Origin: Candidatus Scalindua sp.
GTDB taxonomy: Bacteria > Planctomycetota > Brocadiia > Brocadiales > Scalinduaceae
Assembly (NCBI GenBank): GCA_031316235.1
Contig: JALDRA010000001.1
Location: 1,530,001-1,562,000 of the forward strand
Length of the DNA: 32,000 bases
Direction: 5' to 3'
Made by a program: the position numbers and the translations under genes. Shown one piece after another: positions 4,016 through 26,059 of the stretch (the stretch's first letter is position 1; every line of letters starts with the position of its first letter). The notes beneath the pieces were generated by a model. The model ran no database searches. It had not been told where the DNA came from and was given only the letters and a program-made list of their open reading frames with translations.

Positions 4016-4127
4016 TATACTAAAACCGATTTGGTTTTCGGATTTACCGGAAACCAAATCCTGGTGAAGGTGTACTCGCTCAATTTTATCTCGGATTTTA
4101 TCCGAAATCCAGTATGAGATGAGTATA
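4016..4127 (+). repeat. Family-A intergenic repeat (MITE-like), copy A1, short form
   Basis: TA|TACTAAAACCGATTTGGTTTT...CTCGGATTTTATCCGAAATCCAGTATGAGATGAGTA|TA. Internal hairpins are AAAACC/GGTTTT and CGGAT/ATCCG. Confidence 0.85.
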
Positions 4128-4174
4128 TGTACCTCTTTACAACAACTTTCTCTATCTGGGACGAAGCAGCATTT

Positions 4175-4762
4175 TTACTGGCTTGCTTTCTCCGAAAAGA
4201 TTTCAGACAATTTTTTCTTAAGAGCATCACGCCGTTCTTTACTTTCGCTGCCGGCCTTGTACTCTTCCAGCATGGTGTCTACCAGAAGATCGGCCACTTT
4301 GTCTAACTGTGTACCCATCTTTTTTTCAAGATTGACCTTTATCTTCTCTTTTAACAACTGCTTCTTCGCACAATTTGCAATTTTTAACAGATCATCTACG
4401 CAGTGACCATCACCTGACTTGCATCCACTTTTCTTCCTGCAGGGGGTATCGCATCCCGGTTTACATCCATAGTTCCTGTCGTGATGACATGCATGTGAAT
4501 CGGCACTGCATCCCGGTTTACTTCCACACCTCTTTTCGTGATGACATGTCTGGTCATTTTTGCAGCAGACAGGTTTAGACTCACACTCACTCGCTGCTTT
4601 GCAAACGGGAGTTTCACTTTTATCAACGGACTTTGTCTCTTCCTTTGCAGTTTGAATCCCTTGTGCAGATACTGGAGTACCGGCTCCTGCAAAGTTCAAC
4701 ACGAAACAGGAAAGACTCAACAGTGAAACGAATAAAACTACAGGTTTTAATTTCATGAACAT
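4175..4762 (-). CDS. Secreted Cys/His-rich repeat protein, putative periplasmic metal-binding protein
   Basis: Signal peptide MFMKLKPVVLFVSLLSLSCFVLNFAGAGTPVSAQG. There are two 19-aa units, CHHEKRCGSKPGCSADSHA and CHHDRNYGCKPGCDTPCRK, encoded by a 57-nt DNA period (4451-4491 and 4508-4548). The C-terminal half is helical and charged. Confidence 0.7.
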   Translation of the reverse strand: MFMKLKPVVLFVSLLSLSCFVLNFAGAGTPVSAQGIQTAKEETKSVDKSETPVCKAASECESKPVCCKNDQTCHHEKRCGSKPGCSADSHACHHDRNYGCKPGCDTPCRKKSGCKSGDGHCVDDLLKIANCAKKQLLKEKIKVNLEKKMGTQLDKVADLLVDTMLEEYKAGSESKERRDALKKKLSEIFSEKASQ

Positions 4763-4832
4763 TCTCTTCTCCTTTTAAAATTACCAGATTAACTAAAATA
4801 AAATTACCGCTTAAAATTCCGTGGCCTCTCGG

Positions 4833-4945
4833 TATACGGAAACCTATCTGGCTTTAGATTTTTCTCAAAGCAGAGGCCCGGGTGCCGGTATACTTTCCCG
4901 GTTTATTTCCGGATCTTACCAGAAAACCATTATAAAATGATTATA
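4833..4945 (+). repeat. Family-A repeat, copy A2 (degenerate)
   Basis: TA|TACGGAAACC..GGCTTTAGATTTTTCTCAAAGCAGAGGCCCGGGTGCCGGTAT...CCCGGTTTATTTCCGGATC...AATGATTA|TA aligns along its length with copy A8. Confidence 0.6.
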
Positions 4946-5218
4946 CATTAATAAAAGTCTTTTATCTGCTAAAAAAACAGATACTTCTGCTCAAGACAAA
5001 AGGCAGTTTATGTTTCTCATGAATTTTTAGAAAAGCCCTCTTAACGAAGCAGAAGTAAACACCTCATGTCAGCAGTGAGACTTTTTAAAAAGACTGGAAA
5101 TTACCACAGGCATAGTCCTCTGAAGCGACGACCTATCTTAACTCCTGCTTTTTTTGACCGGAAGCTGCCGACTTACCGATAAACAAATAATCAACAGCTT
5201 TTGTTCCATACTGAACCC

Positions 5219-6187
5219 TTAACTTTGATCCTGCAGCGGCTCAACCCCCAGATAGGGCTGCCAGTAATGGTCAATATCTTCTTTAATGACCCGGATAACA
5301 TCAACCTGTTTTACCGGGTGAAAAAGATGATCATATCTCTCCTGTGCCACCAGATAGGTCTCAACGGGCTTGAATTTTGGAATAACGGTATGACTGAGCT
5401 CCCCGCAAATGGCCTCCTTGAGTGGCCATATACCTGTCTGAACCGCTAATTTAGAGATCTCAACTGATTTTGAATCATCAAACGACCATCCTGATGGACA
5501 GGGAGCGAAGGTAATAAACAGTTTTGGTCCTTTAAATTGAGCTGCTTTTTTGAATTTATTGGAGAGATCGACAGGATGTGAGGGTGCAATAGTCGCCATA
5601 TAGGGTGGTTTGTGTGCCCTCCAGATCTCAAACAGATCCTTCTTTTTCTGTGCGGTACCTCCCGGGTTAACACCCCCCGGAACAGAGGTGTTTGTCTTTG
5701 AACCAAATGGAGTCGCACTTGACATCTGAAAACCCGTGTTAGAGTATGCCTCATTATCATAACATAAATAGTAGAAATCCAGGTTTCTCTGCAGTACCGC
5801 AGATGTTGCCTGCAGACCGATATCGTTCGCCGTGCCATCTCCCGTAAGGACAACAACCTTCAAATCATCTTCCTTTTTTACTTTTCCTTTTTTTATGAGA
5901 ATATCAAGTGCATCCCGTATACCCTGAGCACCTGCCGGGGCGCACGCCATGGCCGTATACATCCATGATGACCTGAACGGGTTGAATGGATAAACGGACA
6001 GCAGGGTGAAACAGCCGGCTGCATTCACAATGACAACATTTTCCCCCAATACCTTCAGTGCAAGCCGTAAGGCCAATAGCCCACCGCAGCCCGAACACAA
6101 GGCAGTCCCAGGGGCAATATGCTCATCCTGAGATATATCCTTGAAATTCTCATATGCGCTCTTCTCCATATTTACATTCATACTCAT
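5219..6187 (-). CDS. porB: 2-oxoacid (probably pyruvate):ferredoxin oxidoreductase, beta (TPP-binding) subunit
   Basis: CSGCGG near the N-terminus and the TPP motif LTGDGTANDIGLQ...YDNEAYSNTG. The true start may be the ATG at 6181 (GGTGGAG 7 nt upstream). Substrate specificity cannot be read from the sequence. Confidence 0.85.
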   Translation of the reverse strand: MSMNVNMEKSAYENFKDISQDEHIAPGTALCSGCGGLLALRLALKVLGENVVIVNAAGCFTLLSVYPFNPFRSSWMYTAMACAPAGAQGIRDALDILIKKGKVKKEDDLKVVVLTGDGTANDIGLQATSAVLQRNLDFYYLCYDNEAYSNTGFQMSSATPFGSKTNTSVPGGVNPGGTAQKKKDLFEIWRAHKPPYMATIAPSHPVDLSNKFKKAAQFKGPKLFITFAPCPSGWSFDDSKSVEISKLAVQTGIWPLKEAICGELSHTVIPKFKPVETYLVAQERYDHLFHPVKQVDVIRVIKEDIDHYWQPYLGVEPLQDQS

Positions 6188-6281
6188 ACTCCACCCACTG
6201 CAATTAAGACCAGGATTATACTTATGGTCTCATTATGTGTGGCGGGCAATATCCATCATACGTTTAGTAACACTTTGCAAC

Positions 6282-6394
6282 TATACGAAAACTGATTTGG
6301 TTTTAGCTTTTTCTAAACACCAAAGCCCGGGTGCTGGCATGCCCGCACAGTTTTTCCCCGGATTTTATCCGAAGACCAATATAAGATGAGCATA
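6282..6394 (+). repeat. Family-A repeat, copy A3, between the alpha and beta oxidoreductase genes
   Basis: TA|TACGAAAACTGATTTGGTTTTAGC...CCCGGATTTTATCCGAAGACCAATATAAGATGAGCA|TA. It ends 1 nt from the alpha-subunit stop codon (6396-6398). Confidence 0.8.
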
Positions 6395-6395
6395 C

Positions 6396-7619
6396 TTATC
6401 CTTTTCCTGCTATGTTCAGAAAATTGTTCATATTTTTCATATCCTGTTCGGTATACAAAAGTTGAGTTTCCGGAACAATACCTGTTTCCACACTCTTTTG
6501 CATCTCATCGAGTATGAAGGAGAACTCGGCCAGACTTATGTCTTTTCCGCCTAAACCGCCAATAAAAGAGAGCACTGCGCCGGGACGGTTTGGTTCATGG
6601 TAGAGCGCTGATGTCACCTCATTGTAGAGGATCCCCCCTGAACCGGGACTGATATTCTGGTCTATGACGGCCAGGGCTTTTTTGCCACGTAAGTATTCCC
6701 TCAGCTCCTGAAAGGGGAAGGGTCTGACAAGTCTTAATCTTACGAGGCCGACTTTTATCCCTTTTTCTCTGAACCGGTTAACTGCATCCTTGCCTTTTAC
6801 AGTAAAAGAGTTGGTCATCAGTATGATATATTCTGCATCTTCCGTCTTGAATGGCTCAACTGCAGAGTATGCTCTCCCGAATATACTCTTGAATTCAGCG
6901 GCAACTTCATTGTGTACACGTAACGCGTTAGACGAAGCTAAATGCATTTGATATCTGAAGTATGAATAGACACTTCCGCCCAGAACTGCCACCCCCTGTG
7001 CCATCGGTTTTGATGCCAGAAAAAAAGCATGCCCGGGGCGATATTCCGGGAGAAACTCCCTAACTTCATCCAATCCGGGTATTTCAACCGGCTCTCGGGT
7101 AAAAGAGAGATAAAACCCGTCCATATTAATCAATACGGGCAGAAACACCCTTTCATCTTCTGCTATCCTGAATGCCATCAGGATAGTATCGAGGATCTCC
7201 TGGCATGTTTCCACATGTAACTGTATCAGGCCCGTATCCCTTGCGGAAAGCACATCGTTATGGTCCGGTTCCAGGGTGATCGGTGCAGACAGCCCTCTTG
7301 ATACATTGATGAGAACAAAAGGAACTCTCCATCCTGCTACGGCATACAGCATTTCACAGCCATAGAGCAGCCCCTGGCTGGAGGTAGCAGAAAATACCCT
7401 TGCACCGGTAGCAGCCGCAGTTCCTGCTGCCGTAATCATCGAGTGTTCAGAATCCATGTTCGTAAATTTTGTATCCATTACGCCACTGTTTACCCATTTT
7501 GATATAACCTCGATTATCTCTGTCTGCGGAGTAATGGGAAAGGCCGGAACATAGTCTACCCCGGAAAGCCTTGCACCCCATGCCGCCGCAAAATTCCCGG
7601 TCAACATTTCCTTTACCAT
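6396..7619 (-). CDS. porA: 2-oxoacid:ferredoxin oxidoreductase, alpha subunit
   Basis: I set the start at the ATG at 7619 (MVKEMLTGNFAAAWGARLSGVDYVPAFPITPQTEI), with GGGAGG 7 nt upstream. It overlaps the upstream stop as ATGGTAA. The N-terminus is typical of an alpha subunit. Confidence 0.88.
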   Translation of the reverse strand: MVKEMLTGNFAAAWGARLSGVDYVPAFPITPQTEIIEVISKWVNSGVMDTKFTNMDSEHSMITAAGTAAATGARVFSATSSQGLLYGCEMLYAVAGWRVPFVLINVSRGLSAPITLEPDHNDVLSARDTGLIQLHVETCQEILDTILMAFRIAEDERVFLPVLINMDGFYLSFTREPVEIPGLDEVREFLPEYRPGHAFFLASKPMAQGVAVLGGSVYSYFRYQMHLASSNALRVHNEVAAEFKSIFGRAYSAVEPFKTEDAEYIILMTNSFTVKGKDAVNRFREKGIKVGLVRLRLVRPFPFQELREYLRGKKALAVIDQNISPGSGGILYNEVTSALYHEPNRPGAVLSFIGGLGGKDISLAEFSFILDEMQKSVETGIVPETQLLYTEQDMKNMNNFLNIAGKG

Positions 7620-8536
7620 TCCCGTACCTCCCGTTTTTTCAAAATTACTTTTTTGGGACACTCCTCAAGACAGATAAGACAGCCCTTGCAATTTTCATAA
7701 TCAATCCGGGGATACCCTGCTGTATCGAGAGAGATACAACTATGCGGGCAGTGGACAAAACACGCCCGGCATCGCGAACATCTTTCATGATCAATGACCG
7801 GTTTAAAAAGGCGCCAGTTTCCGGTCTTTTTTAAGACGGTATTCCCCCTGGCATAGGTACTGGGCGTACCCAGGTATGGACCGGAATATTCCAGCTTCAC
7901 AAATGTATTATCTTCTTTCATCGGTTCTGAATGATCGATGTGAATATCTGGTGTCCGGTCAAAGCAGATAAGTGCAGCCTCTACATTTTTCTTCACAACC
8001 TCTTTGGGAATATCGACAGAAAACAGCTCTCTGACAATGGCTTCCTTCAACGACTGCCTGGTAACCATACCTGTTAATTTAGATGCTGAAGCAGCTGCAA
8101 CGCTGCTGAGCACGGGCTTTCCTATCTGAGTCAAGACAATATCGGTCATATCCAGCGTGACTATCTTTCCGGATATTCCAAATCTTTCCCTGACATGCGC
8201 AGAAGAGTAGTGCGTATTAATCATGGTTATCGTACCCCCATACACTCCCTGAAATACATTTGCCGTACGGTCGTCAAGCAACGTCTCATCTGCTATTATC
8301 GTAATATCAGGATGGACAATGACACCTCTTTCCAGAATAGGGTTTTTCGATACCCTGGTATATGCCTGTATCGGTGCGCCCCTTCTCTCTGCACCGTAAA
8401 CAGGGCAATCCTGCGCAATATATCCCTCAAGGAACGAGGCGGTACCAACGATCCTGCTGGCAGTCTTCATCCCCTGTCCGCCCCTGCCGTGAAACCGGAT
8501 TCTCTTCATAATACCATTTCCGAGATGTTTCATCAT
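7613..8536 (-). CDS. 2-oxoacid:ferredoxin oxidoreductase, fused gamma-delta subunit (two 4Fe-4S motifs at the C-terminus)
   Basis: The gamma-type N-terminus is RFHGRGGQGMKTASRIVG. The C-terminal CSRCRACFVHCP and CKGCLICLEECP are ferredoxin-type clusters. The exact start (8536, 8533 or 8509) is uncertain. Confidence 0.85.
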   Translation of the reverse strand: MMKHLGNGIMKRIRFHGRGGQGMKTASRIVGTASFLEGYIAQDCPVYGAERRGAPIQAYTRVSKNPILERGVIVHPDITIIADETLLDDRTANVFQGVYGGTITMINTHYSSAHVRERFGISGKIVTLDMTDIVLTQIGKPVLSSVAAASASKLTGMVTRQSLKEAIVRELFSVDIPKEVVKKNVEAALICFDRTPDIHIDHSEPMKEDNTFVKLEYSGPYLGTPSTYARGNTVLKKTGNWRLFKPVIDHERCSRCRACFVHCPHSCISLDTAGYPRIDYENCKGCLICLEECPKKVILKKREVREW

Positions 8537-8635
8537 CTCCCCGTTTCAGAAAAAAAACACAGACAGTCATGTTACATGCCTGCGAACAGTGTAATGTGAA
8601 ATTTATCCGGAATCTGTGGTTTGATATTTGGAATT

Positions 8636-8821
8636 TGTACTCATCTTATACTGGATTTCGGACAAAATCCGGGAATAAACAGAGCGAGTAAGGTCCTCGG
8701 TGTCTGGGGATACCTTAACCAGGATTTGGTTTCCAGCCCGCCCGGCCTGTCAGCTGTTCGTCAGCCCGATACTCATTCGACGGGGACGGGTAAAACCGGA
8801 AACCAAAGCGGTTTTCGTATA
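8636..8821 (-). repeat. Family-A repeat, copy A4, long form (186 bp) with extra internal modules
   Basis: The reverse complement reads TA|TACGAAAACCGCTTTGGTTTCC...CAGCTGACAGG...GGAAACCAAATCCTGGTTAAGGTATCCCCAGACACCGAGGACC...CCCGGATTTTGTCCGAAATCCAGTATAAGATGAGTA|CA. Confidence 0.85.
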
Positions 8822-8866
8822 GTAACACCCGCCCGGTTCTGGCTCATGCAGGCCAGGCGGACTGAT

Positions 8867-10883: not shown

Positions 10884-10998
10884 TATACTAAAAACCAAAG
10901 CCTGGTTGCTGTTACCCCCCGGGCAAAAAAACGCCGAGGACTTTACCCGCTCTGTTTTTTCTCGGATTTTATCCGAATTCCAGTATAAGAAGAGTATG
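10884..10998 (+). repeat. Family-A repeat, copy A5 (5' hairpin module deleted)
   Basis: TA|TACTAAAAACCAAAGCCTGGTTGCTG...GGGCAAAAAAACGCCGAGGACTTTACCCGCTC...CTCGGATTTTATCCGAATTCCAGTATAAGAAGAGTA|TG. Compared with A8 it lacks the segment between the two CTAAAA(A)CC repeats. Confidence 0.8.
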
Positions 10999-12783: not shown

Positions 12784-12915
12784 TATACTCATCTCATACT
12801 GGATTTCGGATAAAATCCGAGATAAAATTGAGCGAGTATACCTTCACCAAGATTTGGTTTCCAGCCTGTCAGCTGTTCGGACGGGTAAAACCTAAAACCA
12901 AACCGGTTTTCGTAT
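12784..12915 (-). repeat. Family-A repeat, copy A6 (132 bp, with the CAGCTGACAGG module)
   Basis: The reverse complement reads TA|TACGAAAACCGGTTTGGTTTTAGG...GAACAGCTGACAGGCTGGAAACCAAATCTTGGTGAAGGTATACTCGCTCAATTTTATCTCGGATTTTATCCGAAATCCAGTATGAGATGAGTA|TA. Confidence 0.85.
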
Positions 12916-13039
12916 ATCAGTTAATGGTAACCGAAACAGCGGTTAATGCACATCCCTGCATAAAAAACAGGAATTCAGGAATTCATACAATCCACAATGG
13001 GAACTTCCCTATGTTATAACATTCAGCAAAATCATTGCC

Positions 13040-13459: not shown

Positions 13460-13485
13460 CTCGTGTTTGAACGAAAAGTACCCAT

Positions 13486-13723
13486 CTACTGTGTTGCTGT
13501 AACAATTCCGTAATCCTCACGTACCTGAGTACGTTTCAGTTACGAAATTGTTGCGTGCCCTGTACACTAAAACCGATTTGGTTTTTAGCTTTCCAAAGAA
13601 CCAAATCTTGGTGAAGGTATCCCCGGACAAAAAGCGCCGAGGACTTTACGCGCTCCGTTTTAGCTCGGATTTTATCCGAAATCCAGTATGAGATGAGTAT
13701 ACCTGGGCAGTTTTGGTTCAAAC
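13486..13723 (+). repeat. Family-B hairpin repeat, copy B1, interrupted by family-A copy A7
   Basis: 13486-13564 and 13700-13723 together align with the uninterrupted copy B2 (14625-14724). The hairpin arms are 13501-13513 and 13540-13552. Confidence 0.8.
13563..13701 (+). mobile_element. Family-A repeat, copy A7, inserted into B1 at a TA with TA duplication
   Basis: Filled site: CCCTG-TA-[CACTAAAACC...GATGAGTA]-TA-CCTGGGCAG. Empty paralogous site at 14697-14712: CCTTG-TA-TCTGGGCAG. Confidence 0.85.
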
Positions 13724-13799
13724 AGAGGGTTTCCCGTTCAAGTATCAGCTACGGATTTAAGAATTTTCCCATTTGTGATATATTTTCCTTGATATCATA

Positions 13800-14111: not shown

Positions 14112-14609
14112 ATGACTATACAAATCACAAATAACTTGAGTGGTTTTCTGGATAGAAGCGGGATTGCAAAAGTACTCCAAGTAAAGAGAGACTTTGTTAA
14201 CACAGCGCGTTCGTTCACAAAGCAGGTCAAGGCGAACCGGGAAGAGAGAGGAGAGAGATTTACCGCACTTATGATGAAGGTCGCCATTTTCAAACTTTCA
14301 GCGGCAGCAGTAACGCTTGTTGTTATGGCAACGCTGTTCCTTACCCGTATTCATCTCTTTGCACCAATAACCGCGCAATTCTCAAAATGGGTCACTTCAC
14401 CCTTAATCGGATTTATTCTGTTTGTTATCGTATTAAAGTTTGCAGCCATCTCAACAGGCATTTACCTTACCGTCCTGTCTGCAAAAGAGATGACGGGTCT
14501 GGAAGCCCGCTTATGGATTAGGACAACAGTAAAACGAAAACTCCAACTCCTTTTCAGAAGGAAAATGTCGCTTCAAAGAGCTGCTGTCACTCCTTCTTCT
14601 TCAAGATAA
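14112..14609 (+). CDS. Hypothetical membrane protein (2-3 predicted TM helices)
   Basis: A 165-aa ORF with hydrophobic stretches AAAVTLVVMATLFL and LIGFILFVIVLKFAAISTGIYLTVL. There is no convincing SD and I recognise no family. It may be a relic. Confidence 0.4.
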   Translation: MTIQITNNLSGFLDRSGIAKVLQVKRDFVNTARSFTKQVKANREERGERFTALMMKVAIFKLSAAAVTLVVMATLFLTRIHLFAPITAQFSKWVTSPLIGFILFVIVLKFAAISTGIYLTVLSAKEMTGLEARLWIRTTVKRKLQLLFRRKMSLQRAAVTPSSSR

Positions 14610-14624
14610 ACTGAAACAGCACAC

Positions 14625-14724
14625 CTACTGCGTTGCTGTAATAATTTTGTAATCCTCACGTACTTGAGAACGTTCCGGTTACAAAATTATTTCGCGCCTT
14701 GTATCTGGGCAGTTCTAGTTTAAC
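14625..14724 (+). repeat. Family-B hairpin repeat, copy B2 (uninterrupted)
   Basis: CTACTGCGTTGCTGTAATAATTTTGTAATCCTCACGTACTTGAGAACGTTCCGGTTACAAAATTATTTCGCGCCTTGTATCTGGGCAGTTCTAGTTTAAC. It has a perfect 13-bp stem, 14640-14652 with 14679-14691. Confidence 0.8.
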
Positions 14725-14779
14725 TACATTTAAAATTAATAGTGGAAATCTCTTCATACCAACTATAACATGAATCCAT

Positions 14780-15338: not shown

Positions 15339-18300
15339 CTATTTGAAAGATTCGATCCCACCTGCACGCTGAGAATTCAAAATTGTTCTAACACTTTGCA
15401 AGACTTCGGCCTCTGCCTCGCCAGCATCCTCTCTAATCCATTCTGATAGTTGCCTATTTATCCATCTCTTGAGTTCACTGTCATCTTGTATAGCAATAGG
15501 GATAGGATAAATCCGTGCAAACTCATGGGCAGCAATTCTATTTCTATATCCATACCTAAACCATGCTAACGAATCACGACTATTGCACCCATTTCGAATG
15601 CATAATGGTAATAAAGGCATCTCTCCTAATTGATCGCTTAAAAGGTCTGATTCCTCAAGAATAACAAGTAATGCACCAGCATAAATCGACAAGTGATGTA
15701 AGACTCTCCCTGCAAATGAGAAAATTGCAGGAATATGATTCTGCCCTTGGCTTCTTTTTCCATTTACCACATCTAGTTCTATTCCCAAGAAAACGGAAGC
15801 AATTTCAGCGTAAGTGCTTCCACTCATATACATCCAGATTAAACCGGACAACTCTGTCCACAACCCACCCCAATCATCTGGAATTTCCCATTCTACTGCA
15901 TATCCGTTTTCGCCAATGCGTTCCAGCATTTTGTCAAGGACTGTGTTCATTTTTCGTACGCTTTCAGGCATAATCTTAAGAATATCTTTGGGTGGTAGTC
16001 GCTCCATAACTTTAAGAAATAGATTTAGACAACTTTGTATATTTGTATTCTCAAACTCATCAATGTTATTATTGGAATGACCCAGGCTACACCACAACCG
16101 CCAGCATGTTAGCAAATTAATACCACCTTTCATTGTGGCCATTGGTATCCAGTCCGGCATATTATATTTTTCAACAAGGTTCTCTCCAATATCCCGAACC
16201 CTCCCAACCACTGCTTCAATATCAAGTTCTATTTGCTGTCTTTGCGCAAGATATGCACCGAGAGTATGTCTAAGCACGTCGGCATTTTGTTCTCGTTCTT
16301 TTCCAAGCTGCGCAACCAAATCGAGTTCCTCTGAACTATAGACACCAAGATCCTCGTTTGGAGACAATCTTTCAACAAATGATTTAATGGGGGAAGAAAC
16401 TTGAACGCATCTGTCCGAAACACTTAATAACCTATAACTTTGGATAACTACATCTACACCAACGTGTTCGAGCAATGGGCCAAAAAATGGATCATCTGAG
16501 ACTAATACTGCCAAACCGTGATTAGCAACCATTGCTCTCCCTGCACGGCCAAATGCATTAAGTATCGTAGCCTCAGCACCCCGAACCCCTCCTATGTTGT
16601 CTGCTTTACGGGAATCACCTAACGAAGATCCCGCAACGACGACAATATCTGCTGGCAAATTCAATCCTTGCGCAAGTGTTCGAGTAGCAAACAGAAGCCG
16701 GATAGATCTATTTCCAAAACTTCTTTCAACAGCAGCCTGTTCCGAATCCAACATTGCACTTGAATGAACCCCCACACCTTTGCGTAGTAACTCATCCACT
16801 TTTGAAGGAACACCCAATTCAGCATTGGCAAGACCAATTAATCCTTCCGTATGTTGATCTAAGACTATATCACTATTCAATTCACATTTCTCTGCACTGC
16901 TAAACACATGGTGTCTACTCGTGAGTATGAAGCACAGAACATTAAAGCCCGCGTTGTAAAACTGCTCCGAAAGCTGGCGCCCTGCAGTATTCTTCCAACT
17001 CTTAAAGTCTGCATCATCACCAAGTAGTCCTGAAGTGCCCTGCTTAGCTTTGCTCTCAAAAGTAAAAGGAACAGGAATGGACACATAGTCTTCTTCATTA
17101 CCATTTTCTTCCCAACGCAAACACATCCCTCCCAGAAGGCCCAGCGGTACATCAAACTTAACAAACTTCCTAGTAGGGGATAAAACATCAAACTGTGATC
17201 TGGCAATACTAAGAGCTTCCTCTGTTTTCTCTTGATTAACAAACAAAAGGCTCCTTAAAGTTCGACATGGTCTCCAAGGAATCTGAATTAACGGCACTTC
17301 TTGACCATCTCTTAATTTATGTAACCACTCAGTAACATCGTCACCATTTGAAACCATAGCTGACATCAGGAGAAGACGTGTTTCTGAATTCAACGTTAGA
17401 ATCTGTGCTAAACAAAGATCTAATGTAATCCCTCGATAATCGTCATTGATTGTATGAAACTCATCAACGATGCAGAGCCGACAATTTTCAAATATGTTTG
17501 GATTAATGCGAAACGCCATGGCACATTTTTCTGGAGTCATAACAGCAACAGACATCTCAGGCGGTGTTTCGAGGTGCTCTCCTGCCAAACTCGTATACTC
17601 TTGCCCTCCAACAAAAGATAGTATCTGTATCCCATGAAACAACTTAAAAGCAATTTGTAAATCACGTTGCACCTGATTTACCAGAGCATTGGTTGGAGCC
17701 AGATATAATACCCAGCCATTCTGCATGGCCTGACTACAAGCCAACTCTGCAATAAAGCTCTTCCCGCTCCCGGTAGGAACGACCACAATTGCGTCAGCTT
17801 TCGGTCCGGGAAAGGTGTCTTCTACATATTCTTTTGCAGATGGCCACAGAAAAGGACGCTGTGTTGCACGTGAGGCCAAATAACGTTCATATTCTACTGA
17901 CCCCATTTGTCGCGTCTTAATTCCTTGACCAAGTGTTGCACGTGAGGCCAAATAACGTTCATATTCTACTCTCCTATCTCCCTGCATTTCTGGACGTGGT
18001 AAATTATGCATTAAGGAGAGAGGCTTACTTGAATGAACGACATGAATTAGCAAGGTACATAGATGTAACAAATCAGAGAATGGTACAGCGGTGAAAGTTT
18101 TCGTAGCTGGTCGTAATTTCTGAGATAATTGTTTGAGTTCTTCTTCTATATTAACCGTCACCACACTTCCAGTCAACCACCTACAATAGAATTTTACAAG
18201 GTCAGCTAAACGAACCATAGCTGCAATTCGTGCAGCAACTAAAGAATTATATTGGTCATAATTAATGCTGAGAGCATTCTGAATGTTGTCAAGTTTACCC

Positions 18301-18821
18301 GTAGCAAGCGCACAGATTACATTTTGAAGATAGGAAATAATTTCAATATCTCGCTGATCATGATCATATGTTTCCAGAAATAACTGACCTTTTACTTCAT
18401 TTACAGAGCAATGAGCATTTATCTGATATTCACTCGCCAAATACAGCAAAGCGCTTTCAATTCGAGCATAAGCCATATCCACACCCACATTACCATCGTC
18501 CCGAACTGCTTTCGCAAAACTGCACCATAGGTCAATAGCTTCTGCTGCTATGAATGCATGGGAGCGCATACGTTTTAAAGCGTCCTCATCGTGACCCTCT
18601 GATTCATTAAACAAATATTGTTCCATGGCATTGGCTAAGCGTCGAAGATAATCACAAGCCTTCTCTATGGACTCCTTAGATTCCCCAAGTTCTGAACCAT
18701 TCAGTCTTAATTGAATCAAGGCAAAGTAAAGACGCGACAACCGTCTCCGACACTCCTTCCAATCAGTGTCATCCAGTTCCGGCAGTTGCTTCAAACAATC
18801 CTCTGCAAATTCATCATACAT
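15339..18821 (-). CDS. Large SF2 helicase, Ski2/Hel308-like core with long N- and C-terminal extensions; HamB-like candidate
   Basis: Motif I VVVPTGSGKS, Ia LAPTNALVNQ, Ic MTPEK, II IVDEFH (17454-17471), III SAM, V FATRTLAQGLNLPA and VI FGRAGR (16536-16553). The core spans about aa 335-790. The start overlaps the upstream gene by 8 nt (ATGTATGA), and GAGGAG lies 10 nt upstream. Confidence 0.85.
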   Translation of the reverse strand: MYDEFAEDCLKQLPELDDTDWKECRRRLSRLYFALIQLRLNGSELGESKESIEKACDYLRRLANAMEQYLFNESEGHDEDALKRMRSHAFIAAEAIDLWCSFAKAVRDDGNVGVDMAYARIESALLYLASEYQINAHCSVNEVKGQLFLETYDHDQRDIEIISYLQNVICALATGKLDNIQNALSINYDQYNSLVAARIAAMVRLADLVKFYCRWLTGSVVTVNIEEELKQLSQKLRPATKTFTAVPFSDLLHLCTLLIHVVHSSKPLSLMHNLPRPEMQGDRRVEYERYLASRATLGQGIKTRQMGSVEYERYLASRATQRPFLWPSAKEYVEDTFPGPKADAIVVVPTGSGKSFIAELACSQAMQNGWVLYLAPTNALVNQVQRDLQIAFKLFHGIQILSFVGGQEYTSLAGEHLETPPEMSVAVMTPEKCAMAFRINPNIFENCRLCIVDEFHTINDDYRGITLDLCLAQILTLNSETRLLLMSAMVSNGDDVTEWLHKLRDGQEVPLIQIPWRPCRTLRSLLFVNQEKTEEALSIARSQFDVLSPTRKFVKFDVPLGLLGGMCLRWEENGNEEDYVSIPVPFTFESKAKQGTSGLLGDDADFKSWKNTAGRQLSEQFYNAGFNVLCFILTSRHHVFSSAEKCELNSDIVLDQHTEGLIGLANAELGVPSKVDELLRKGVGVHSSAMLDSEQAAVERSFGNRSIRLLFATRTLAQGLNLPADIVVVAGSSLGDSRKADNIGGVRGAEATILNAFGRAGRAMVANHGLAVLVSDDPFFGPLLEHVGVDVVIQSYRLLSVSDRCVQVSSPIKSFVERLSPNEDLGVYSSEELDLVAQLGKEREQNADVLRHTLGAYLAQRQQIELDIEAVVGRVRDIGENLVEKYNMPDWIPMATMKGGINLLTCWRLWCSLGHSNNNIDEFENTNIQSCLNLFLKVMERLPPKDILKIMPESVRKMNTVLDKMLERIGENGYAVEWEIPDDWGGLWTELSGLIWMYMSGSTYAEIASVFLGIELDVVNGKRSQGQNHIPAIFSFAGRVLHHLSIYAGALLVILEESDLLSDQLGEMPLLPLCIRNGCNSRDSLAWFRYGYRNRIAAHEFARIYPIPIAIQDDSELKRWINRQLSEWIREDAGEAEAEVLQSVRTILNSQRAGGIESFK
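17861..17970 (-). repeat. Perfect 38-bp direct repeat (17861-17898 and 17933-17970) spaced 72 bp apart, in frame, inside the helicase gene
   Basis: GTGTTGCACGTGAGGCCAAATAACGTTCATATTCTACT occurs twice. It encodes VEYERYLASRAT twice, separated by LGQGIKTRQMGS, just N-terminal of motif I. Confidence 0.9.
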
Positions 18822-19692
18822 TGTCCACTAACTCCTCAGCTTTGATCCGCATAAAGCTTGATATCTCATCAAAAAATGCATCGAAATCATCTACAGCATG
18901 TGGCATAACCACCACCGGTGCTGTAAGATCATTAAAAGCTGTTCTTGGCCGCCCCCATTGTACAGTGACACCATTTGCTTCATAATGTGGATTAGGGATG
19001 AGAGTTCTTTCATTCTTCCATAAGGATAACGAAAGTTGCTGTTTATATGGTTTCTCGATGACTGAATTAAATGACGTAATTACTTGCCGAAGTCGTGTGT
19101 CGTGCACTCCCGCTTCTATAGATTCGAACATTATAACAGCTTTACTAATGGCTTCATTTGGATTGTTTCGATATGCTTTTGTTTCAACAAAAGACATTCC
19201 CAAGATTCCATCATCTCTTACATATAATGCGGTCACATCTAGCCCGTGGTCCTTTGGAGAGACATTAGGAAGATCGAGAGCAATAATAGTTCCTTGTGTA
19301 TGAAATTCAGGGCATTTCATCGCAATATGCATGCAACAATGCCAAATACCTTCAGCAATCCATGCATTCCGCCACTTTGATTTCCAGTCCTGTTGACTTT
19401 CTTTAGAGTCAGTGGATTGTTCAATAATCTCATTAACAGACCGCAAAATACCATATGCATAATCAGGGGTAGAGCCGATCAAATCAGAACAAATGCTACC
19501 AGCCTGATCGATGACACCAGCTCTTAATGACACTAGGTATACAGCCAAAGCATCAATAGTTTCCTCGCGTTGCCACCCAGTTACCTCTACAACAGTATGA
19601 GTCTCTGCATAAATATTGCTTACGACCAATGAATCCTTAAGAACGGATAGTGACTCGTTTATTTTACTCTTGAGTATTTCAGACAAGACCAT
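18814..19692 (-). CDS. PD-(D/E)xK-like putative nuclease, HamA (DUF1837)-like candidate
   Basis: The 292-aa protein has HGLD152VTALYV...GMSFVE170TK172AY, which gives D-x17-E-x-K in a strand-strand context. It is translationally coupled to the helicase. The family assignment is by architecture and motif only. Confidence 0.6.
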   Translation of the reverse strand: MVLSEILKSKINESLSVLKDSLVVSNIYAETHTVVEVTGWQREETIDALAVYLVSLRAGVIDQAGSICSDLIGSTPDYAYGILRSVNEIIEQSTDSKESQQDWKSKWRNAWIAEGIWHCCMHIAMKCPEFHTQGTIIALDLPNVSPKDHGLDVTALYVRDDGILGMSFVETKAYRNNPNEAISKAVIMFESIEAGVHDTRLRQVITSFNSVIEKPYKQQLSLSLWKNERTLIPNPHYEANGVTVQWGRPRTAFNDLTAPVVVMPHAVDDFDAFFDEISSFMRIKAEELVDNV

Positions 19693-22836: not shown

Positions 22837-23190
22837 GTCACATTCGCTTTCCCTGATTGATTTCTTCTCATCTGTTTGCCCTTATCAGAAAACTTCCAGC
22901 ACCAGAACTAATCAGCTAACCCTATACCAAATTTGCAAAAAAAATGCTTACCGCATAAAATTCCAGAAGCAACAACCAGGGAAACACTTATGTAACGGAT
23001 TTCATGGTAAGAAGTAAAGTCATTGATCGGATCGCTTTCCATACATTGCTGTATTGTATAAATATACATCGGGTTACGCACATCCTGCCATCCTGAATGA
23101 AGGAAGTCCGACAGGGTCCGGAAAGGTGTTTTTCCAAACAGACAACATGTTATCCTCTGATTTACCTGCAGTTGCCGACAATCGCTCAAT

Positions 23191-23595
23191 TTATTTTTTG
23201 CCAATCATCTCATACTCCTGATAGAGTGACTCTTCTTCGTGCGTTATTCGTGCATTAAGGGCAGCAAAAAGACTTTCAAAATTTATCGAAAAATCTTTGC
23301 CGGTACCTCCTTCAGAATATGTATCAAAAAATTCTGCCACAACCCTGGAAACGTACTCAGGATCCATTGCAAACAAATCTAATTCCCTTTTCAGATTTTT
23401 ATTATGCTCTGCCTCTTTTCTGAGAGCTGGATATAGTTGTTCGTCCTCATGTTTCAGATGCTCAAGCAAAACCCCTTTCAGACTCAAGAGTTTGGCCTGT
23501 CCCTCCTTTGAATGAATACCAATTTTCTTAACCTCTCTGAGCAAGGCAATGATTTCGCAATGCTCCCTCTTAAATCGTTCAATAATTTCTGACAT
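23191..23595 (-). CDS. Hemerythrin-like (HHE cation-binding) domain protein
   Basis: A 134-aa helical protein with H/E ligand spacing: KREHCEI, LEHLKHEDEQLYPAL, ITHEEESLY. Confidence 0.7.
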   Translation of the reverse strand: MSEIIERFKREHCEIIALLREVKKIGIHSKEGQAKLLSLKGVLLEHLKHEDEQLYPALRKEAEHNKNLKRELDLFAMDPEYVSRVVAEFFDTYSEGGTGKDFSINFESLFAALNARITHEEESLYQEYEMIGKK

Positions 23596-24017
23596 TTTAT
23601 TCTCCTCTATTTCCCGTCTCCTGTTGTTTCGTACGGTTTTATAGCAACAGTTCCTAGAAGTTCTCCCATTGGTATCACTTTTAATACATGTGCAGCATTA
23701 TAGCAAGAAATTTTGTTTGAAAATTTCTGCATACCGGCAGTGTACCATGCCGGCAAGGGTTACTTACTGTTGCAGAAACACCCCCACCTGCGTGGGGAAG
23801 ACCTTTCACCTGATTGTCTTTGTTCCTCCCGTGATATCTATATCGGATTTTGTAAGTTTAGTCACCCGAATTGATAATATGCGGCAGGATGTACCGCTCA
23901 TAAAGACCCATTTTTTATCCTGCTGACGAAAGCAATAGTACTGAATTAAGGAACTCGTCTCCTTTGCCCTCTTTCTTTTTACCCTCTCTCCTCAGTAAAA
24001 ATCGAGTCAATATTGTA

Positions 24018-24050
24018 ACGATACTGAAACCAAATCGGTTTCAGTATCGT
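24018..24050. repeat. Isolated 14-bp-stem hairpin related to the 5' module of family A (ACGATACTGAAACCaaatcGGTTTCAGTATCGT)
   Basis: The core TACTGAAACCAAATCGGTTT matches the reverse complement of the A-element 5' end TACTAAAACCGATTTGGTTT. It lies 41 nt downstream of the stop of the 24091-25839 gene (minus strand). Confidence 0.55.
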
Positions 24051-24090
24051 AAATTCCGGCCAGGTTCCGGTTCGACCAGGTCGTGTTCTC

Positions 24091-25839
24091 CTAATTGGCG
24101 GCACACTCAAGCACCCCGGTATAATCTTTCGTGCTCCATTGACTACCCAATACCTCACCCATTACACGGTACGATCCTGTTTCAAGTCCTATGTCCTGTT
24201 TTTCCAGTGTATAGATAAGTTTTTTGCCGCTTGAAACAAGGTGAACAGGTTTTATGTACTTCCAATCCCATGTATTACCATCACCGGAATAGCGGTAGAG
24301 TTCCCCGTCCATAACCATGTGCGAAGCTCTAATTTCATAGTTTCTAAACCCGCTGTAAACTTCGTCTGTATCTATGAAAATAACATAGTGATTTGAGAAC
24401 TTTGGTATTTTCCGAAAAACCATCTCCACGATCAGTTCCGAAACAGAGCCTGTTGAGGTCTGCAGTATAATATCCTGATGACCTTTGATTGATATATCAA
24501 TGTCATCTTCCATCTGACAGACAACATCGGTCAGGGAAACCTTTGTCACTCCCCTCAGGATGTTACTCGTATCCTGATTATCCCAGGTGGAATTCAATGT
24601 GGCAGCCATTGCTGAGACGAGTGTGTTGTTGCCTGTCTCTATTGACGAAGGGAATATCTCAGTGGTAATAGTGTTATTAATAATGGAACTCCTCACATCC
24701 CTGAGATATTCCCATGACCAGCTTGTCCCGCTACCGTTATATTTGTATAAACAGCCATCTTCTATCATATAGTTTGCAGAAAATTCGGTTGTTGTATAAT
24801 AGACAGGATCACCAGGCCTCAAGGTACTGATATATATCTGGTAGTGGGTGCTGTTTCCGGCAATATCCCCATCCATGGTAACGTGGTATTGTATCCCGTC
24901 ATCCCGGGTTTCCACCCTGAATTCTGTTATATCCACTGCCCGTTCTATGGTACTGTCCACTTCATCAGGAATCAGGTAAAGGTTCATCTGATCCAGCCGG
25001 GTAACAAATATATCTGTTGTTGAGGGTATGAATCCAAACCTGATCGCTCTTTCTATTGCAAATTTAAGCAGATCATTATCATTTCCCGTCCTGTAATCGA
25101 GTGTCCAGATATCTATCGGATAATTCTGCATCAGTTGATTTAAAAGAGTCCCTGTCTCATCAAGATAACTCAGTTCTGATCCAGACCATTTTTTATATTC
25201 TTTGGTATCAAAATCGTAGAAGGAGCTGAACTCCTCAAACAGCAATGCATCGATTGTGCCTGCTGTTTCATTTATGATGGAAAATCCCCGGTTCTGCACA
25301 AGATAATAATCAGGGTAGTTGAGTCTTATCTTGATCACCAGTGCTATCATTCCGCTAATGGTCTCCGGGTATAGATCAACGGTATCAAGGGTATCGAGGA
25401 AAAGACCCTTTATACCTCTCGATGATATCTCCGGTATTTGTGTCTGAAGAATATAATCGTGCCATGCGTTGCTGTTGGCATTGACATAGTAGGACTCCCA
25501 GACAGGATTCCGGTCTGGAAAATTATCACCATCCTGATCCAGATACCATGAAGCATATCCGCCGGGCCCATTCTTATCTCCTGTAATCAGAGTATCTGTC
25601 TCACCAATGGAGAGATAGGTGATCAAACGTGCGCGTACATCTGATAAATCAGCAGAGATATTATCCGGAGAAAAAAGCCTTATATCTATCACAAGGTTTT
25701 CGTAGTCGTTCCATTTATCCGAAAATTCATCACCATAGTAAAATCCAAATTTATCTCTGGCTTCTGCATCTCCGCAGCTTATGACTACCACAAAGCAGGT
25801 TATAAAAACTGAAAGTGTTACCTTACTCAATAATTGCAT
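24091..25839 (-). CDS. Secreted GH114-like / MJ1477-TM1410-family putative glycoside hydrolase with two C-terminal repeat domains
   Basis: I set the start at the ATG at 25839, which gives the signal peptide MQLLSKVTLSVFITCFVVVISCG. TIM-barrel motifs are LVIDIRLF, ITYLSIGETD, NPVWESYYVN..SNAWHDYIL, GIKGLFLDTLDTVDLY. The C-terminal units share G(C/E)LY(K/R)Y(N/S)G.G(T/N)(S/T)W.W(E/K)Y. Confidence 0.75.
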   Translation of the reverse strand: MQLLSKVTLSVFITCFVVVISCGDAEARDKFGFYYGDEFSDKWNDYENLVIDIRLFSPDNISADLSDVRARLITYLSIGETDTLITGDKNGPGGYASWYLDQDGDNFPDRNPVWESYYVNANSNAWHDYILQTQIPEISSRGIKGLFLDTLDTVDLYPETISGMIALVIKIRLNYPDYYLVQNRGFSIINETAGTIDALLFEEFSSFYDFDTKEYKKWSGSELSYLDETGTLLNQLMQNYPIDIWTLDYRTGNDNDLLKFAIERAIRFGFIPSTTDIFVTRLDQMNLYLIPDEVDSTIERAVDITEFRVETRDDGIQYHVTMDGDIAGNSTHYQIYISTLRPGDPVYYTTTEFSANYMIEDGCLYKYNGSGTSWSWEYLRDVRSSIINNTITTEIFPSSIETGNNTLVSAMAATLNSTWDNQDTSNILRGVTKVSLTDVVCQMEDDIDISIKGHQDIILQTSTGSVSELIVEMVFRKIPKFSNHYVIFIDTDEVYSGFRNYEIRASHMVMDGELYRYSGDGNTWDWKYIKPVHLVSSGKKLIYTLEKQDIGLETGSYRVMGEVLGSQWSTKDYTGVLECAAN

Positions 25840-25919
25840 AAAAAACTCTTTCCAAAAATGCCCTTCAGTTGAACAAAGGAACAGCAACGCATTCCGGATC
25901 AAACTGAAGATTTCTAAAA

Positions 25920-26059
25920 TATACTAAAACCGCTTTGGATTTAGATTTTTCTAAAAACCAAAGCCTGGTTGCTGGTATCCCCGGACAAAAAGCGCCGGGG
26001 ACTTTCCTCTCTGCGTTTTTTCCCGGATTGTATCCGGAATCCAGTATAAGATGTGTACA
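25920..26059 (+). repeat. Family-A repeat, copy A8 (140 bp, with the M2 module)
   Basis: TA|TACTAAAACCGCTTTGGATTTAGATTTTTCTAAAAACCAAAGCCTGGTTGCTGGTATCCCCGGACAAAAAGCGCCGGGGACTTTCC...CCCGGATTGTATCCGGAATCCAGTATAAGATGTGTA|CA. Confidence 0.85.

What the first reader, a model, noticed from the sequence alone, without database searches (positions are those of the whole stretch)
4016..26059. Very dense, modular, TA-flanked intergenic repeat family (eight copies plus one hairpin fragment in 32 kb)
Copies lie at 4016-4127, 4833-4945, 6282-6394, 8636-8821(-), 10884-10998, 12784-12915(-), 13563-13701 and 25920-26059. There is also a hairpin-only fragment at 24018-24050.

- All copies share the ends TAC(T/G)AAAACC...GATGAGTA.
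- The 5' hairpin is AAAACC-gattt-GGTTTT.
- The 3' segment CGGATTTTATCCGAAATCC can fold in two mutually exclusive ways.
- Lengths range from 112 to 186 bp because optional internal modules come and go. Examples are CCCCGGACAAAAAGCGCCGAGGACTTTACGCGCTC and GAACAGCTGACAGGC.
- One copy shows a deletion between internal CTAAAA(A)CC direct repeats.
- Five of the eight copies are flanked by TA on both sides. The other three have TA at the 5' flank and CA or TG at the 3' flank.
- Both orientations occur relative to neighbouring genes, which argues for mobility rather than a fixed regulatory role.

Established knowledge: TA target duplication is the hallmark of IS630/Tc1-mariner-type transposition. The terminal inverted repeat here is only about 4-6 bp (TACT...), which is atypically short for such MITEs. 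No autonomous partner is present in the window.
Basis: partly seen in the sequence, partly recalled or inferred. Interest (0 to 1): 0.7.

Follow-up and report, generated by a model that had tools for sequence, protein, structure and literature searches.

The report
TA-duplicating MITE family in Scalindua
The repeats are real copies of a small non-coding jumping-DNA element (a MITE) that is very abundant in marine anammox bacteria (Candidatus Scalindua); it inserts at TA dinucleotides and duplicates them, so it is an ordinary kind of bacterial mobile element, though not described for this group in the papers I could search.

Summary
All eight copies and the hairpin fragment are at the stated coordinates, and chance would give none.

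The mobile-element reading is also confirmed, with direct evidence:
- **Distribution.** The same family fills four Scalindua/Scalinduaceae genome assemblies: 179 profile hits outside the window, 130 distinct full-length copies once the window's are included.
- **Target-site duplication.** A relative about 88% identical in DNA lacks five of the six copies in the shared region. At copy c4 it shows a clean empty site, GGAATT-TA-TTAAC, against TG-[TAC…GTA]-TA in the window. Copy c7 sits inside another repeat whose roughly 45 uninterrupted copies carry a single TA at that spot. So the element duplicates a 2-bp TA.
- **Inverted ends.** They are a two-part 26-nt repeat, TATACT-N10-TGGTTTTCGG. Minimal 57-bp elements consist of two such ends and a short loop.
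- **No RNA signal.** Orientation relative to genes is random, there is no Rfam match, and covariation is negligible.

The transposase was not found. An IS630/Tc1-mariner-type enzyme is inferred only from the TA duplication and the target preference.

In kind this resembles Correia and RUP elements: a new member of a known class, of modest interest.

Side findings: two further MITE-like families in the window, and an IS110-family element inserted in the loop of one of the family's optional hairpins in another genome.

The parts
4016..4127 (+). Copy c1, 112 bp basic form, with a TA on each side (4016-4017 and 4126-4127)
   Evidence: nhmmer score 106.5 covering the whole model. Both 26-nt ends match the end pattern. 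98% identical to c6 over 80 nt (I1).
4833..4945 (+). Copy c2, 113 bp basic form; old and diverged (67-72% identical to the other window copies over the 3' 57 nt)
   Evidence: Not detected in the orthologous spacer of the relative L200.
6282..6394 (+). Copy c3, 113 bp basic form, in the spacer between the pyruvate:ferredoxin oxidoreductase alpha and beta subunit genes, 1 nt from the stop codon of the alpha subunit gene
   Evidence: The relative L200 has a 139-bp copy in the same spacer sharing the same right-hand junction, but in the opposite orientation.
8636..8821 (-). Copy c4, 186 bp, carrying modules M1 (long form) and M2. The flanking dinucleotides are TG at 8636-8637 and TA at 8820-8821.
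   Evidence: Clean empty site in L200: GGAATT-TA-TTAAC, against GGAATT-TG-[TAC...GTA]-TA-GTAAC in the window.
10884..10998 (+). Copy c5, 115 bp, with an internal 5' deletion between the CTAAAACC repeats; carries M2; lies in a divergent promoter region
   Evidence: Absent from the orthologous spacer of L200.
12784..12916 (-). Copy c6, 133 bp, carrying a short M1 module, between the phosphofructokinase and yjbQ genes
   Evidence: No copy in the orthologous L200 spacer.
13563..13701 (+). Copy c7, 139 bp, carrying M2, inserted at a TA inside a unit of a different repeat family (family 3)
   Evidence: The host reads ...GTGCCCTG-TA-[CAC...GTA]-TA-CCTGGGCAGTTTTGGTTCAAAC. Uninterrupted family-3 units read ...GCGCCTTG-TA-CCTGGGCAG.
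25920..26059 (+). Copy c8, 140 bp, carrying M2; old and diverged; lies in a divergent intergenic region
24019..24049 (.). Micro-derivative: a roughly 30-bp palindrome made of the outer 12 nt of the 5' end, a 5-nt loop and the complement of those 12 nt
   Evidence: (I16). The same form occurs at L029:7024-7049.
13460..13751 (+). Host unit of repeat family 3, a separate MITE-like element of about 150 bp that is interrupted here by c7. Its outer limits are approximate.
14600..14727 (+). Uninterrupted family-3 unit. It serves as a within-window 'empty site' for c7: CGCGCCTTG-TA-TCTGGGCAG at about 14692-14711.
   Evidence: (D5).

Best explanation
These are copies of a non-autonomous DNA transposon (a MITE) specific to the anammox lineage Candidatus Scalindua/Scalinduaceae.

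**Anatomy.** The element proper runs from TAC to GTA. Each end carries an imperfect 26-nt inverted repeat when the flanking TA is counted: TATACT-N10-TGGTTTTCGG. The basic form is 112-113 bp. Longer forms of about 132-223 bp carry one to three optional GC-rich hairpin modules at fixed internal points. Shorter forms of 57 bp, and of about 30 bp, are little more than the two ends.

**Mechanism.** A transposase encoded elsewhere in the genome binds the two ends, cuts the element out or copies it, and inserts it at a TA dinucleotide, which becomes duplicated on both sides.

**What is shown.** The inverted ends, the 2-bp TA duplication, presence/absence differences between related genomes, the random orientation and the intergenic spread.

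**What is inferred.** The enzyme is a DDE transposase of the IS630/Tc1-mariner type; I put that at about 0.55. Some copies in this lineage (c1, c6, c7) look recent.

Any effect on neighbouring genes would be a by-product. Examples are hairpins carried in operon transcripts, or a TATACT end that resembles a -10 promoter box.
For: **Family size and host range.**
All were in four Scalindua/Scalinduaceae assemblies.
- The nhmmer profile found 187 hits, 131 of them full length.

**Ends.**
- The 5' end TATACT-AAAACCGATT-TGGTTTTCGG and the reverse complement of the 3' end TATACT-CATCTCATAA-TGGTTTTCGG share their outer 6 and inner 10 positions. This pattern matches 13 element termini in the window against 0.27 expected.
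- 57-bp mini-elements consist only of two ends and a 5-nt loop, in 5'-3', 5'-5' and 3'-3' combinations (L002:2557-2613, L113:1105-1161, L115:5944-6000). So the ends are the functional unit and are interchangeable.
- A second, 182-bp family shares the same end consensus.

**TA duplication.**
- c4 has an empty site in the syntenic relative L200 with exactly one TA.
- c7 is nested at the single TA of a family-3 unit. About 45 uninterrupted units act as empty sites, and the same nested site is filled in L006, L012 and L048.
- Less clean empty sites: L110 against L003, and L047 against L114.
- Abutting elements share one TA (L112:5499, L082:6317).
- 119 of 130 distinct full-length copies have TA on both sides.

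**Mobility.**
- L200 is about 87-90% identical in DNA and has the same gene order. It has only one copy in the region where the window has six, and that copy is inverted.
- Window copies are 67-98% identical to each other, so they are a mix of ages.

**Target preference.** C-A-T-A|TA|T is enriched around insertions. From memory, this resembles the Tc1 target consensus CAYATATRTG.

**Not regulatory.** 39 copies are sense and 48 antisense between co-directional genes, and only 8 of 187 overlap predicted ORFs.

**Literature.** TA-flanked bacterial MITEs with inverted ends are an established class. RUP is thought to be mobilised by IS630-Spn1 (PMC2229807). IS630-family insertion sequences are reported in anammox genomes of other genera (PMC7814187).
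Against: - No autonomous element with these ends was found. None is in the window. No pair of ends 0.6-3 kb apart encloses a transposase in 0.94 Mb of Scalindua DNA.
- A crude regular-expression search for IS630/Tc1 catalytic motifs found nothing.
- The only candidate is the right end of a longer multi-copy element that broke three SCAELEC01 contigs (L007, L071, L076). Its interior is unknown, and its 34-residue reading frame found no database match.
- An element that inserts 3' of a TA and itself ends in TA would look the same at empty sites, so the duplication is the most economical reading rather than a proof of chemistry.
- Other DDE families, such as some IS5 subgroups, also make 2-bp duplications (from memory).
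- A few compensatory changes in old copies (c2, c3) keep the first hairpin paired. This could hint at some constraint on structure.
Confidence: 0.8

Rival explanations
1. It is the same kind of non-autonomous transposon, but mobilised by a DDE transposase of a family other than IS630/Tc1-mariner. A candidate would be an IS5-type or PIF/Harbinger-like enzyme that also makes very short duplications.
For: No IS630-type gene or catalytic motif was found in 0.94 Mb of Scalindua DNA. The one candidate long element is known only from its terminal 125 bp. The target preference is only partly palindromic.
Against: A strict 2-bp TA duplication with inverted ends is the classic signature of IS630/Tc1-mariner (PMC2229807). 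IS630-family elements are reported in other anammox genera (PMC7814187).
Confidence: 0.2
2. They are REP/REPIN-like palindromic units moved as single-stranded DNA by an HUH tyrosine transposase (a RAYT, or an IS200/IS605-type TnpA). The TA would then be the preferred cleavage or target site rather than a duplication.
For: The 5' end contains a small hairpin (AAAACC-GATTT-GGTTTT) preceded by a conserved hexamer, as REPs do. A Y1-transposase gene (PF01797) lies in the window at 1222-2208. Empty sites cannot formally tell 'inserts 3' of TA and ends in TA' from a TA duplication.
Against: - The window's Y1 gene is flanked by its own, unrelated 28-nt inverted repeats (I14).
- The 3' end and the ends of the 182-bp family are not palindromic.
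- The ends are interchangeable in 5'-5', 3'-3' and 5'-3' mini-elements. That fits a protein binding double-stranded inverted repeats, not distinct left and right hairpins.
- Orientation shows at most a weak link with local GC skew: 67% against 53% in '+' orientation.
Confidence: 0.05
3. They are a family of structured cis-acting RNA elements, such as transcript stabilisers, processing sites or attenuators, kept for their fold. Mobility would be secondary.
For: The elements fold into several hairpins. Some sit inside operons (c3 between the por alpha and beta genes; c4 between the flavodiiron protein gene and the por gamma/delta gene). One-sided changes at three pairs of the first hairpin keep G-U pairing on the element's '+' strand, and three pairs show a compensatory change in single old copies.
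Against: - No orientation preference relative to transcription: 39 sense against 48 antisense.
- No Rfam match, even at E<=1.
- The covariation term is -0.19 kcal/mol, and stems are conserved by sequence identity.
- No excess of terminator- or promoter-like sites.
- Five of six sites are empty in a close relative with the same operons.
Confidence: 0.04
4. They are deletion derivatives (left end plus right end) of the IS110-family element seen inside two copies, and are moved by its recombinase.
For: In L055 and L091 a 1.7-kb segment encoding DEDD_Tnp_IS110 and Transposase_20 domains lies between a 5' part and a 3' part of the repeat.
Against: - The 1.7-kb insert is 99.5% identical between the two sites, while the surrounding repeat copies differ in module content. 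This fits two independent site-specific insertions into the loop of the M2 hairpin.
- IS110-family elements insert at defined sequences of 10 nt or more, such as REPs (PMC11208160). The flanks of the repeat copies are random beyond the TA.
Confidence: 0.03

Closest known systems
Correia elements (NEMIS/CREE) of Neisseria
   Same: Small (about 107 and about 155 bp) non-coding repeats with inverted ends of about 24-26 bp that begin with TA. They duplicate TA, number in the hundreds, lie mostly between genes in both orientations, and come in length variants that differ by an internal block. No cognate transposase is known (PMC2229807).
   Different: I saw no sequence resemblance; this was not formally tested. 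The host phylum is different (Planctomycetota). The Scalindua ends are two-part (6 + 10 conserved positions). Up to three optional GC-rich hairpin modules occur. An IHF site and RNase III processing were not examined.
RUP of Streptococcus pneumoniae (thought to be mobilised by IS630-Spn1)
   Same: A MITE of about 107 bp that inserts at TA. Its mobilisation is inferred from end similarity to an IS630-family element, and it often lands in other mobile elements (PMC2229807). Here, c7 and at least three other copies sit inside another repeat family.
   Different: For RUP a partner insertion sequence with matching ends exists in the same genome. Here none was found in the DNA available.
ERIC/IRU and related enterobacterial small mobile sequences
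   Same: TA-flanked imperfect palindromes of about 127 bp, lying between genes, often co-transcribed, with length variants (PMC2229807).
   Different: ERIC has a shorter contiguous inverted end (7 bp in that review's table), is far less dense, and has an unrelated sequence.
REP/REPIN elements with RAYT transposases
   Same: Very abundant intergenic palindromic units, and targets for IS110-family insertion (PMC11208160). Here an IS110-family element sits in the loop of the M2 hairpin.
   Different: REPs make no target duplication and are tied to a single RAYT gene flanked by the same REPs. Here there is a TA duplication, and the Y1-transposase gene in the window has unrelated flanking repeats.

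Membership tests
Bacterial MITE (non-autonomous DNA transposon) | Small (under about 300 bp), non-coding, many dispersed copies | tested here: met
   Copies are about 30-223 bp. There are 187 profile hits in the window plus 118 blocks from four assemblies. Only 8 of 187 overlap predicted ORFs.
Bacterial MITE (non-autonomous DNA transposon) | Terminal inverted repeats | tested here: met
   The 26-nt two-part ends TATACT-N10-TGGTTTTCGG match 13 termini in the window against 0.27 expected. 57-bp mini-elements are made of two ends only.
Bacterial MITE (non-autonomous DNA transposon) | Target-site duplication, shown by comparing filled and empty sites | tested here: met
   TA is duplicated at the c4 site compared with L200. 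c7 is nested at the single TA of a family-3 unit, with about 45 uninterrupted paralogues and three further filled ones.
Bacterial MITE (non-autonomous DNA transposon) | Insertion differences between related genomes | tested here: met
   The syntenic relative L200 has 1 copy where the window has 6, and that copy is inverted.
IS630/Tc1-mariner-derived MITE | Strict TA target, duplicated on insertion | tested here: met
   (119 of 130 copies with TA on both sides).
IS630/Tc1-mariner-derived MITE | An IS630-family insertion sequence (DDE_3 transposase) in the same genomes whose ends match the MITE ends | tested here: inconclusive
   None was found among end pairs 0.6-3 kb apart, by catalytic-motif search or among multi-copy ORFs. 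Only about 0.94 Mb of repeat-selected blocks could be searched. One multi-copy longer element with a matching right end exists, but its interior is missing.
IS630/Tc1-mariner-derived MITE | AT-rich, roughly palindromic target context around the TA | tested here: inconclusive
   Position -4 is C in 42% of copies, -3 is A in 46%, -2 is T in 47%, -1 is A in 58% and +1 is T in 46%. The right side is only weakly symmetric.
REP/REPIN-RAYT system | No target duplication; a RAYT gene flanked by the same repeat | tested here: not met
   A TA duplication is shown. The window's Y1_Tnp gene (1222-2208) is flanked by unrelated 28-nt inverted repeats.
Curated structured RNA family (Rfam) | Match to a covariance model, or covariation supporting one fold | tested here: not met
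   No match at the gathering threshold over the whole window. No match at E<=1 on c4. The covariation term is -0.19 kcal/mol, and 3 of 27 pairs show a double change, each in a single sequence.
Correia/NEMIS family proper | Sequence homology to the Neisseria consensus; IHF-binding site; RNase III processing of the hairpin | not tested
   No Neisseria sequence was at hand in the tools used. The resemblance is in architecture only (PMC2229807).

The most novel reading that the evidence does not exclude
Scalindua genomes may carry a whole 'ecosystem' of TA-flanked MITE families: at least two that share one end consensus, plus two more families seen in this window. There may be no resident cognate transposase, as with Correia elements, which would imply mobilisation by an unrecognised or horizontally visiting enzyme. 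The optional GC-rich hairpin modules at fixed internal points may be more than deletion variants: they could serve as dedicated landing pads for RNA-guided IS110-family recombinases, as seen in the M2 loop in L055 and L091. That would make the MITEs natural 'safe harbours' that shape where other mobile DNA goes.
Probability: 0.1. Interest if true: 0.55.

Novelty: new member of a known kind. Interest (0 to 1): 0.3.

Why it matters
- **Assembly and binning.** Scalindua are the main marine anammox bacteria and are known almost only from metagenome assemblies. A repeat present about once every 4 kb here explains why their assemblies fragment. An independent Logan contig covering this region ends inside another repeat, and three SCAELEC01 contigs start inside a related longer element.
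- **Strain markers.** Presence/absence of copies gives cheap markers for telling strains apart and for dating divergence.
- **Possible effects on genes.** Copies inside central-metabolism operons (pyruvate:ferredoxin oxidoreductase, the flavodiiron protein gene, phosphofructokinase) could alter transcript stability or create promoters, as shown for Correia elements. This was not tested here.
- **General biology.** It is another example of a well-known class, not a new mechanism.

Tried and rejected
**Searching for the transposase**
1. End pairs 0.6-3 kb apart: the only hits were two IS110-family insertions inside copies.
2. Solo ends with their inward sequences compared to each other: these were mostly truncated remnants.
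3. Multi-copy ORF clustering found nothing.
4. Regular expressions for IS630/Tc1 catalytic motifs found nothing.
Padded with X, it had no database match.
6. A scan of viral contigs for the end pattern gave 0 hits.

**Searching for orthologous empty sites**
1. Exact look-up of the window's YjbQ and the por beta subunit protein found neither on record.
3. Most spacers between genomes about 75-85% identical were too diverged for base-exact empty sites.

**Readings considered and rejected**
1. The IS110-family element as parent of the repeats. The flanks are random, and the host copies differ while the insertion sequence is 99.5% identical.
2. GC-rich modules as independent repeats. They occur only inside the elements.
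3. A terminator or promoter role. There is no enrichment of such sites.
4. A 5-bp direct repeat, TGTAC, flanking c1. Other copies show nothing similar, so it is chance.

**Literature.** No paper in the searchable library describes MITEs in Scalindua or other anammox bacteria.

Full report

Yes. The repeat finder recovers the family as several direct and inverted groups. MAFFT aligns eight copies.

The conserved 3' core occurs 7 times against 0.00 expected in shuffles. The optional modules and the internal deletion in c5 are also real. The 'hairpin-only fragment' is a palindrome of about 30 bp at 24019-24049.

**2. Where does the window come from, and how widespread is the family?**

The genes are typical of an anammox planctomycete with about 42% G+C. 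They include pyruvate:ferredoxin oxidoreductase subunits, a flavodiiron protein, PPi-type phosphofructokinase, MetK and SecA.

Every block came from one of four Candidatus Scalindua/Scalinduaceae assemblies: SCAELEC01, RBC_AMX3, OFTM1 and CBDCUS01. The profile finds 187 hits in the window plus these blocks, 131 of them full length. No match occurs in the viral collection.

**3. Anatomy**

All full-length copies begin TATACTAAAACC and end GATGAGTATA, and the DNA beyond these ends is unrelated from copy to copy.

- 5' end: TATACT-AAAACCGATT-TGGTTTTCGG
- reverse complement of the 3' end: TATACT-CATCTCATAA-TGGTTTTCGG

The outer 6 and inner 10 positions are the same. This two-part pattern marks 13 termini in the window against 0.27 expected.

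The ends are sufficient to define an element. Mini-elements of 57 bp consist of two ends and a 5-nt loop, in every combination:
- 5' end with 3' end: L002:2557-2613 and L002:2896-2952
- 5' end with 5' end: L113:1105-1161
- 3' end with 3' end, a perfect palindrome: L115:5944-6000

Forms of about 30 bp, such as the window's fragment, keep only the outermost 12 nt on each side.

Lengths cluster at 112/113, 132-142, 162-169, 177-196 and 219-223 bp. The differences come from up to three GC-rich hairpin modules at fixed points. These modules are found only inside elements, so they mark subfamilies or deletion series and are not independent repeats.

A second family of 182 bp in the other genomes has ends of the same consensus, TATACCCATCRCRAAWTGGTTTTMGG. 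It is probably served by the same or a related enzyme.

**4. Is it mobile, and is the TA a duplication?**

Three lines of evidence say yes.

(a) *A close relative lacks most copies.* A contig from a relative (L200; por beta subunit 92% identical in protein, DNA about 87-90% identical) has the same gene order across window positions about 4.2-14.6 kb. It carries only one copy there, where the window has six. At c4 the alignment is exact. L200 reads GGAATT-TA-TTAAC. The window reads GGAATT-TG-[TAC…GTA]-TA-GTAAC. That is one TA in the empty site and two around the element, one since mutated. The one shared spacer (c3) holds a copy in L200 too, but in the opposite orientation and in the 139-bp form, with the same right-hand junction.

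(b) *c7 is nested inside another repeat.* The 95-nt repeat found by the repeat finder next to c7 (D5) turned out to be the core of a third, very abundant family of about 150 bp. About 45 uninterrupted units read …GCGCCTTG-TA-CCTGGGCAGTTTT…, including one at about 14600-14727 in the window itself. Around c7 the window reads …GTGCCCTG-TA-[CAC…GTA]-TA-CCTGGGCAGTTTT…. The same TA is occupied by copies of other length classes in L006, L012 and L048. This shows both the 2-bp duplication and a favoured target.

(c) *Further support.* There are less clean empty sites (L110 against L003, L047 against L114). Abutting elements share a single TA. Among 130 distinct full-length copies, 119 have TA on both sides. 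The flanks show a mild preference for C-A-T-A|TA|T.

**5. Is it a regulatory or structured RNA instead?**

Nothing supports that.
- Between co-directional genes, 39 copies are sense and 48 antisense. Copies also lie in divergent and convergent spacers.
- Rfam gives no match, even at E<=1.
- In 38 distinct basic-form copies, the RNAalifold covariation term is -0.19 kcal/mol. Only three pairs show a double change, each in a single old copy.
- Promoter-like and terminator-like sites are not enriched.

The hairpins are largely the inverted ends themselves.

**6. Which enzyme?**

This part is inferred, not shown. A strict TA duplication with inverted ends is the signature of IS630/Tc1-mariner elements and of the MITEs attributed to them, such as RUP (PMC2229807). 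IS630-family insertion sequences are reported in other anammox genera (PMC7814187).

I could not find a partner, however. No end pair encloses a transposase other than two IS110-family insertions. No IS630-like catalytic motif turned up, and there are no multi-copy ORFs. All of this rests on only 0.94 Mb of repeat-selected DNA.

One lead remains. Three SCAELEC01 contigs start with the same 100 bp followed by a matching end (…CCTAAAACCATTTCGTAATGAGTATA) and then unique DNA. That is the right end of a longer multi-copy element that broke the assembly. Its interior is not available, and its open frame found nothing.

An HUH/RAYT mechanism is unlikely. The Y1-transposase gene in the window (1222-2208) is flanked by unrelated repeats, and the ends are interchangeable double-strand-type inverted repeats.

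Derivation from the IS110-family element found inside two copies is also unlikely. That 1.7-kb insert is 99.5% identical at both sites, while its host copies differ. In addition, IS110-family elements insert at defined sequences (PMC11208160), whereas these repeats have random flanks.

**7. Comparison with what is known, and novelty**

In architecture and behaviour this is closest to Correia/NEMIS elements: inverted ends of about 24-26 bp starting with TA, short and long forms, hundreds of copies, no known transposase. It is also close to RUP (PMC2229807). It meets every defining feature of a bacterial MITE that I could test. Membership in the IS630-derived subgroup is met for the TA duplication and left open for the partner element.

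I found no paper describing MITEs in Scalindua or other anammox bacteria in the searchable library. It is therefore best called a new member of a known kind.

**8. Verdict**

The correction is that the ends are a 26-nt two-part inverted repeat. The additions are direct proof of the TA duplication and of insertion differences between relatives.

Interest is modest at 0.3. The element matters in practice for assembling and typing Scalindua genomes, and it may touch expression of central-metabolism operons, but the mechanism is well known. The most novel reading still open is a transposase-less MITE ecosystem whose hairpin modules act as landing pads for IS110-family elements; I give that about 0.1.

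Noticed in passing
window 13460-13751 (interrupted by c7) and window 14600-14727: A third, very abundant Scalindua repeat family of about 150 bp. It has TA-bounded inverted ends (TAGTGTYTGAACGAAAAC...) and a long central hairpin. At least 49 near-full copies occur in blocks that were not selected for it. It looks like another TA-flanked MITE, and it hosts a favoured insertion site for the family under study.
   Followed up: partly
window about 27705-27885: A fourth repeat of about 175 bp with 18-nt inverted ends (GTCCGGTTAGGTTTTTGC...GCAAAAACCTAACCGGAC). Copies occur in L112, L105, L063, L098, L064 and L011. The independent Logan contig L001 ends inside it, at window position 27835.
   Followed up: partly
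window 1172-2211: A gene at 1222-2208 encodes a Y1_Tnp (IS200-like HUH) domain plus a DnaA-type helix-turn-helix domain. It is flanked by 28-nt inverted repeats that contain a hairpin (GGGTCAAGTCCATACTTGACTACATAAT). This is a RAYT-like arrangement, unrelated in sequence to the repeats studied. L200 has a deleted remnant of it.
   Followed up: partly
L055:4509-6210 and L091 (about 3240-4940), Scalindua RBC_AMX3: A 1.7-kb IS110-family element (DEDD_Tnp_IS110 and Transposase_20 domains; the reading frame is split in L055) is inserted exactly in the loop of the optional M2 hairpin of two different repeat copies. It has a non-coding 3' end of about 325 bp that could encode a bridge RNA.
   Followed up: partly
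L010:4156-4337, L012:453-634, L042:5114-5295, L115:1273-1454 and others: A second MITE family of 182 bp whose 26-nt ends share the consensus of the family studied (TATACCCATCRCRAAWTGGTTTTMGG). It is not present in the window.
   Followed up: partly
L007:1-125, L071:1-126, L076:1-123 (starts of three SCAELEC01 contigs): An identical 100 bp followed by a matching end, then unique flanks. This is the right end of a longer multi-copy element that broke the assembly, and the best lead to an autonomous partner.
   Followed up: partly
window 15339-19692: A 1160-residue DEAD/ResIII helicase matches Hachiman HamB and PDC-M23B defence models (E down to 3e-46). It overlaps an upstream 292-residue ORF that has no family match. 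This is possibly a Hachiman-like defence pair.
   Followed up: partly
window 17861-17898 and 17933-17970: An exact 38-nt direct repeat, 72 nt apart, inside the helicase ORF. It gives an in-frame duplicated peptide (…VEYERYLASRAT… twice).
   Followed up: no
window 4451-4564: A 57-nt tandem repeat (70% identical) inside the Cys/His-rich 195-residue ORF at 4175-4762, which lies between c1 and c2 and has no Pfam match.
   Followed up: no
window 6282-6394 compared with L200:9728-9866: The same spacer between the por alpha and beta subunit genes holds a copy in both genomes, with the same junction on one side. The orientation is opposite and the length class differs, and L200 has 26 extra bp on the other side. 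This means either independent hits at one TA or an inversion or replacement in place.
   Followed up: partly
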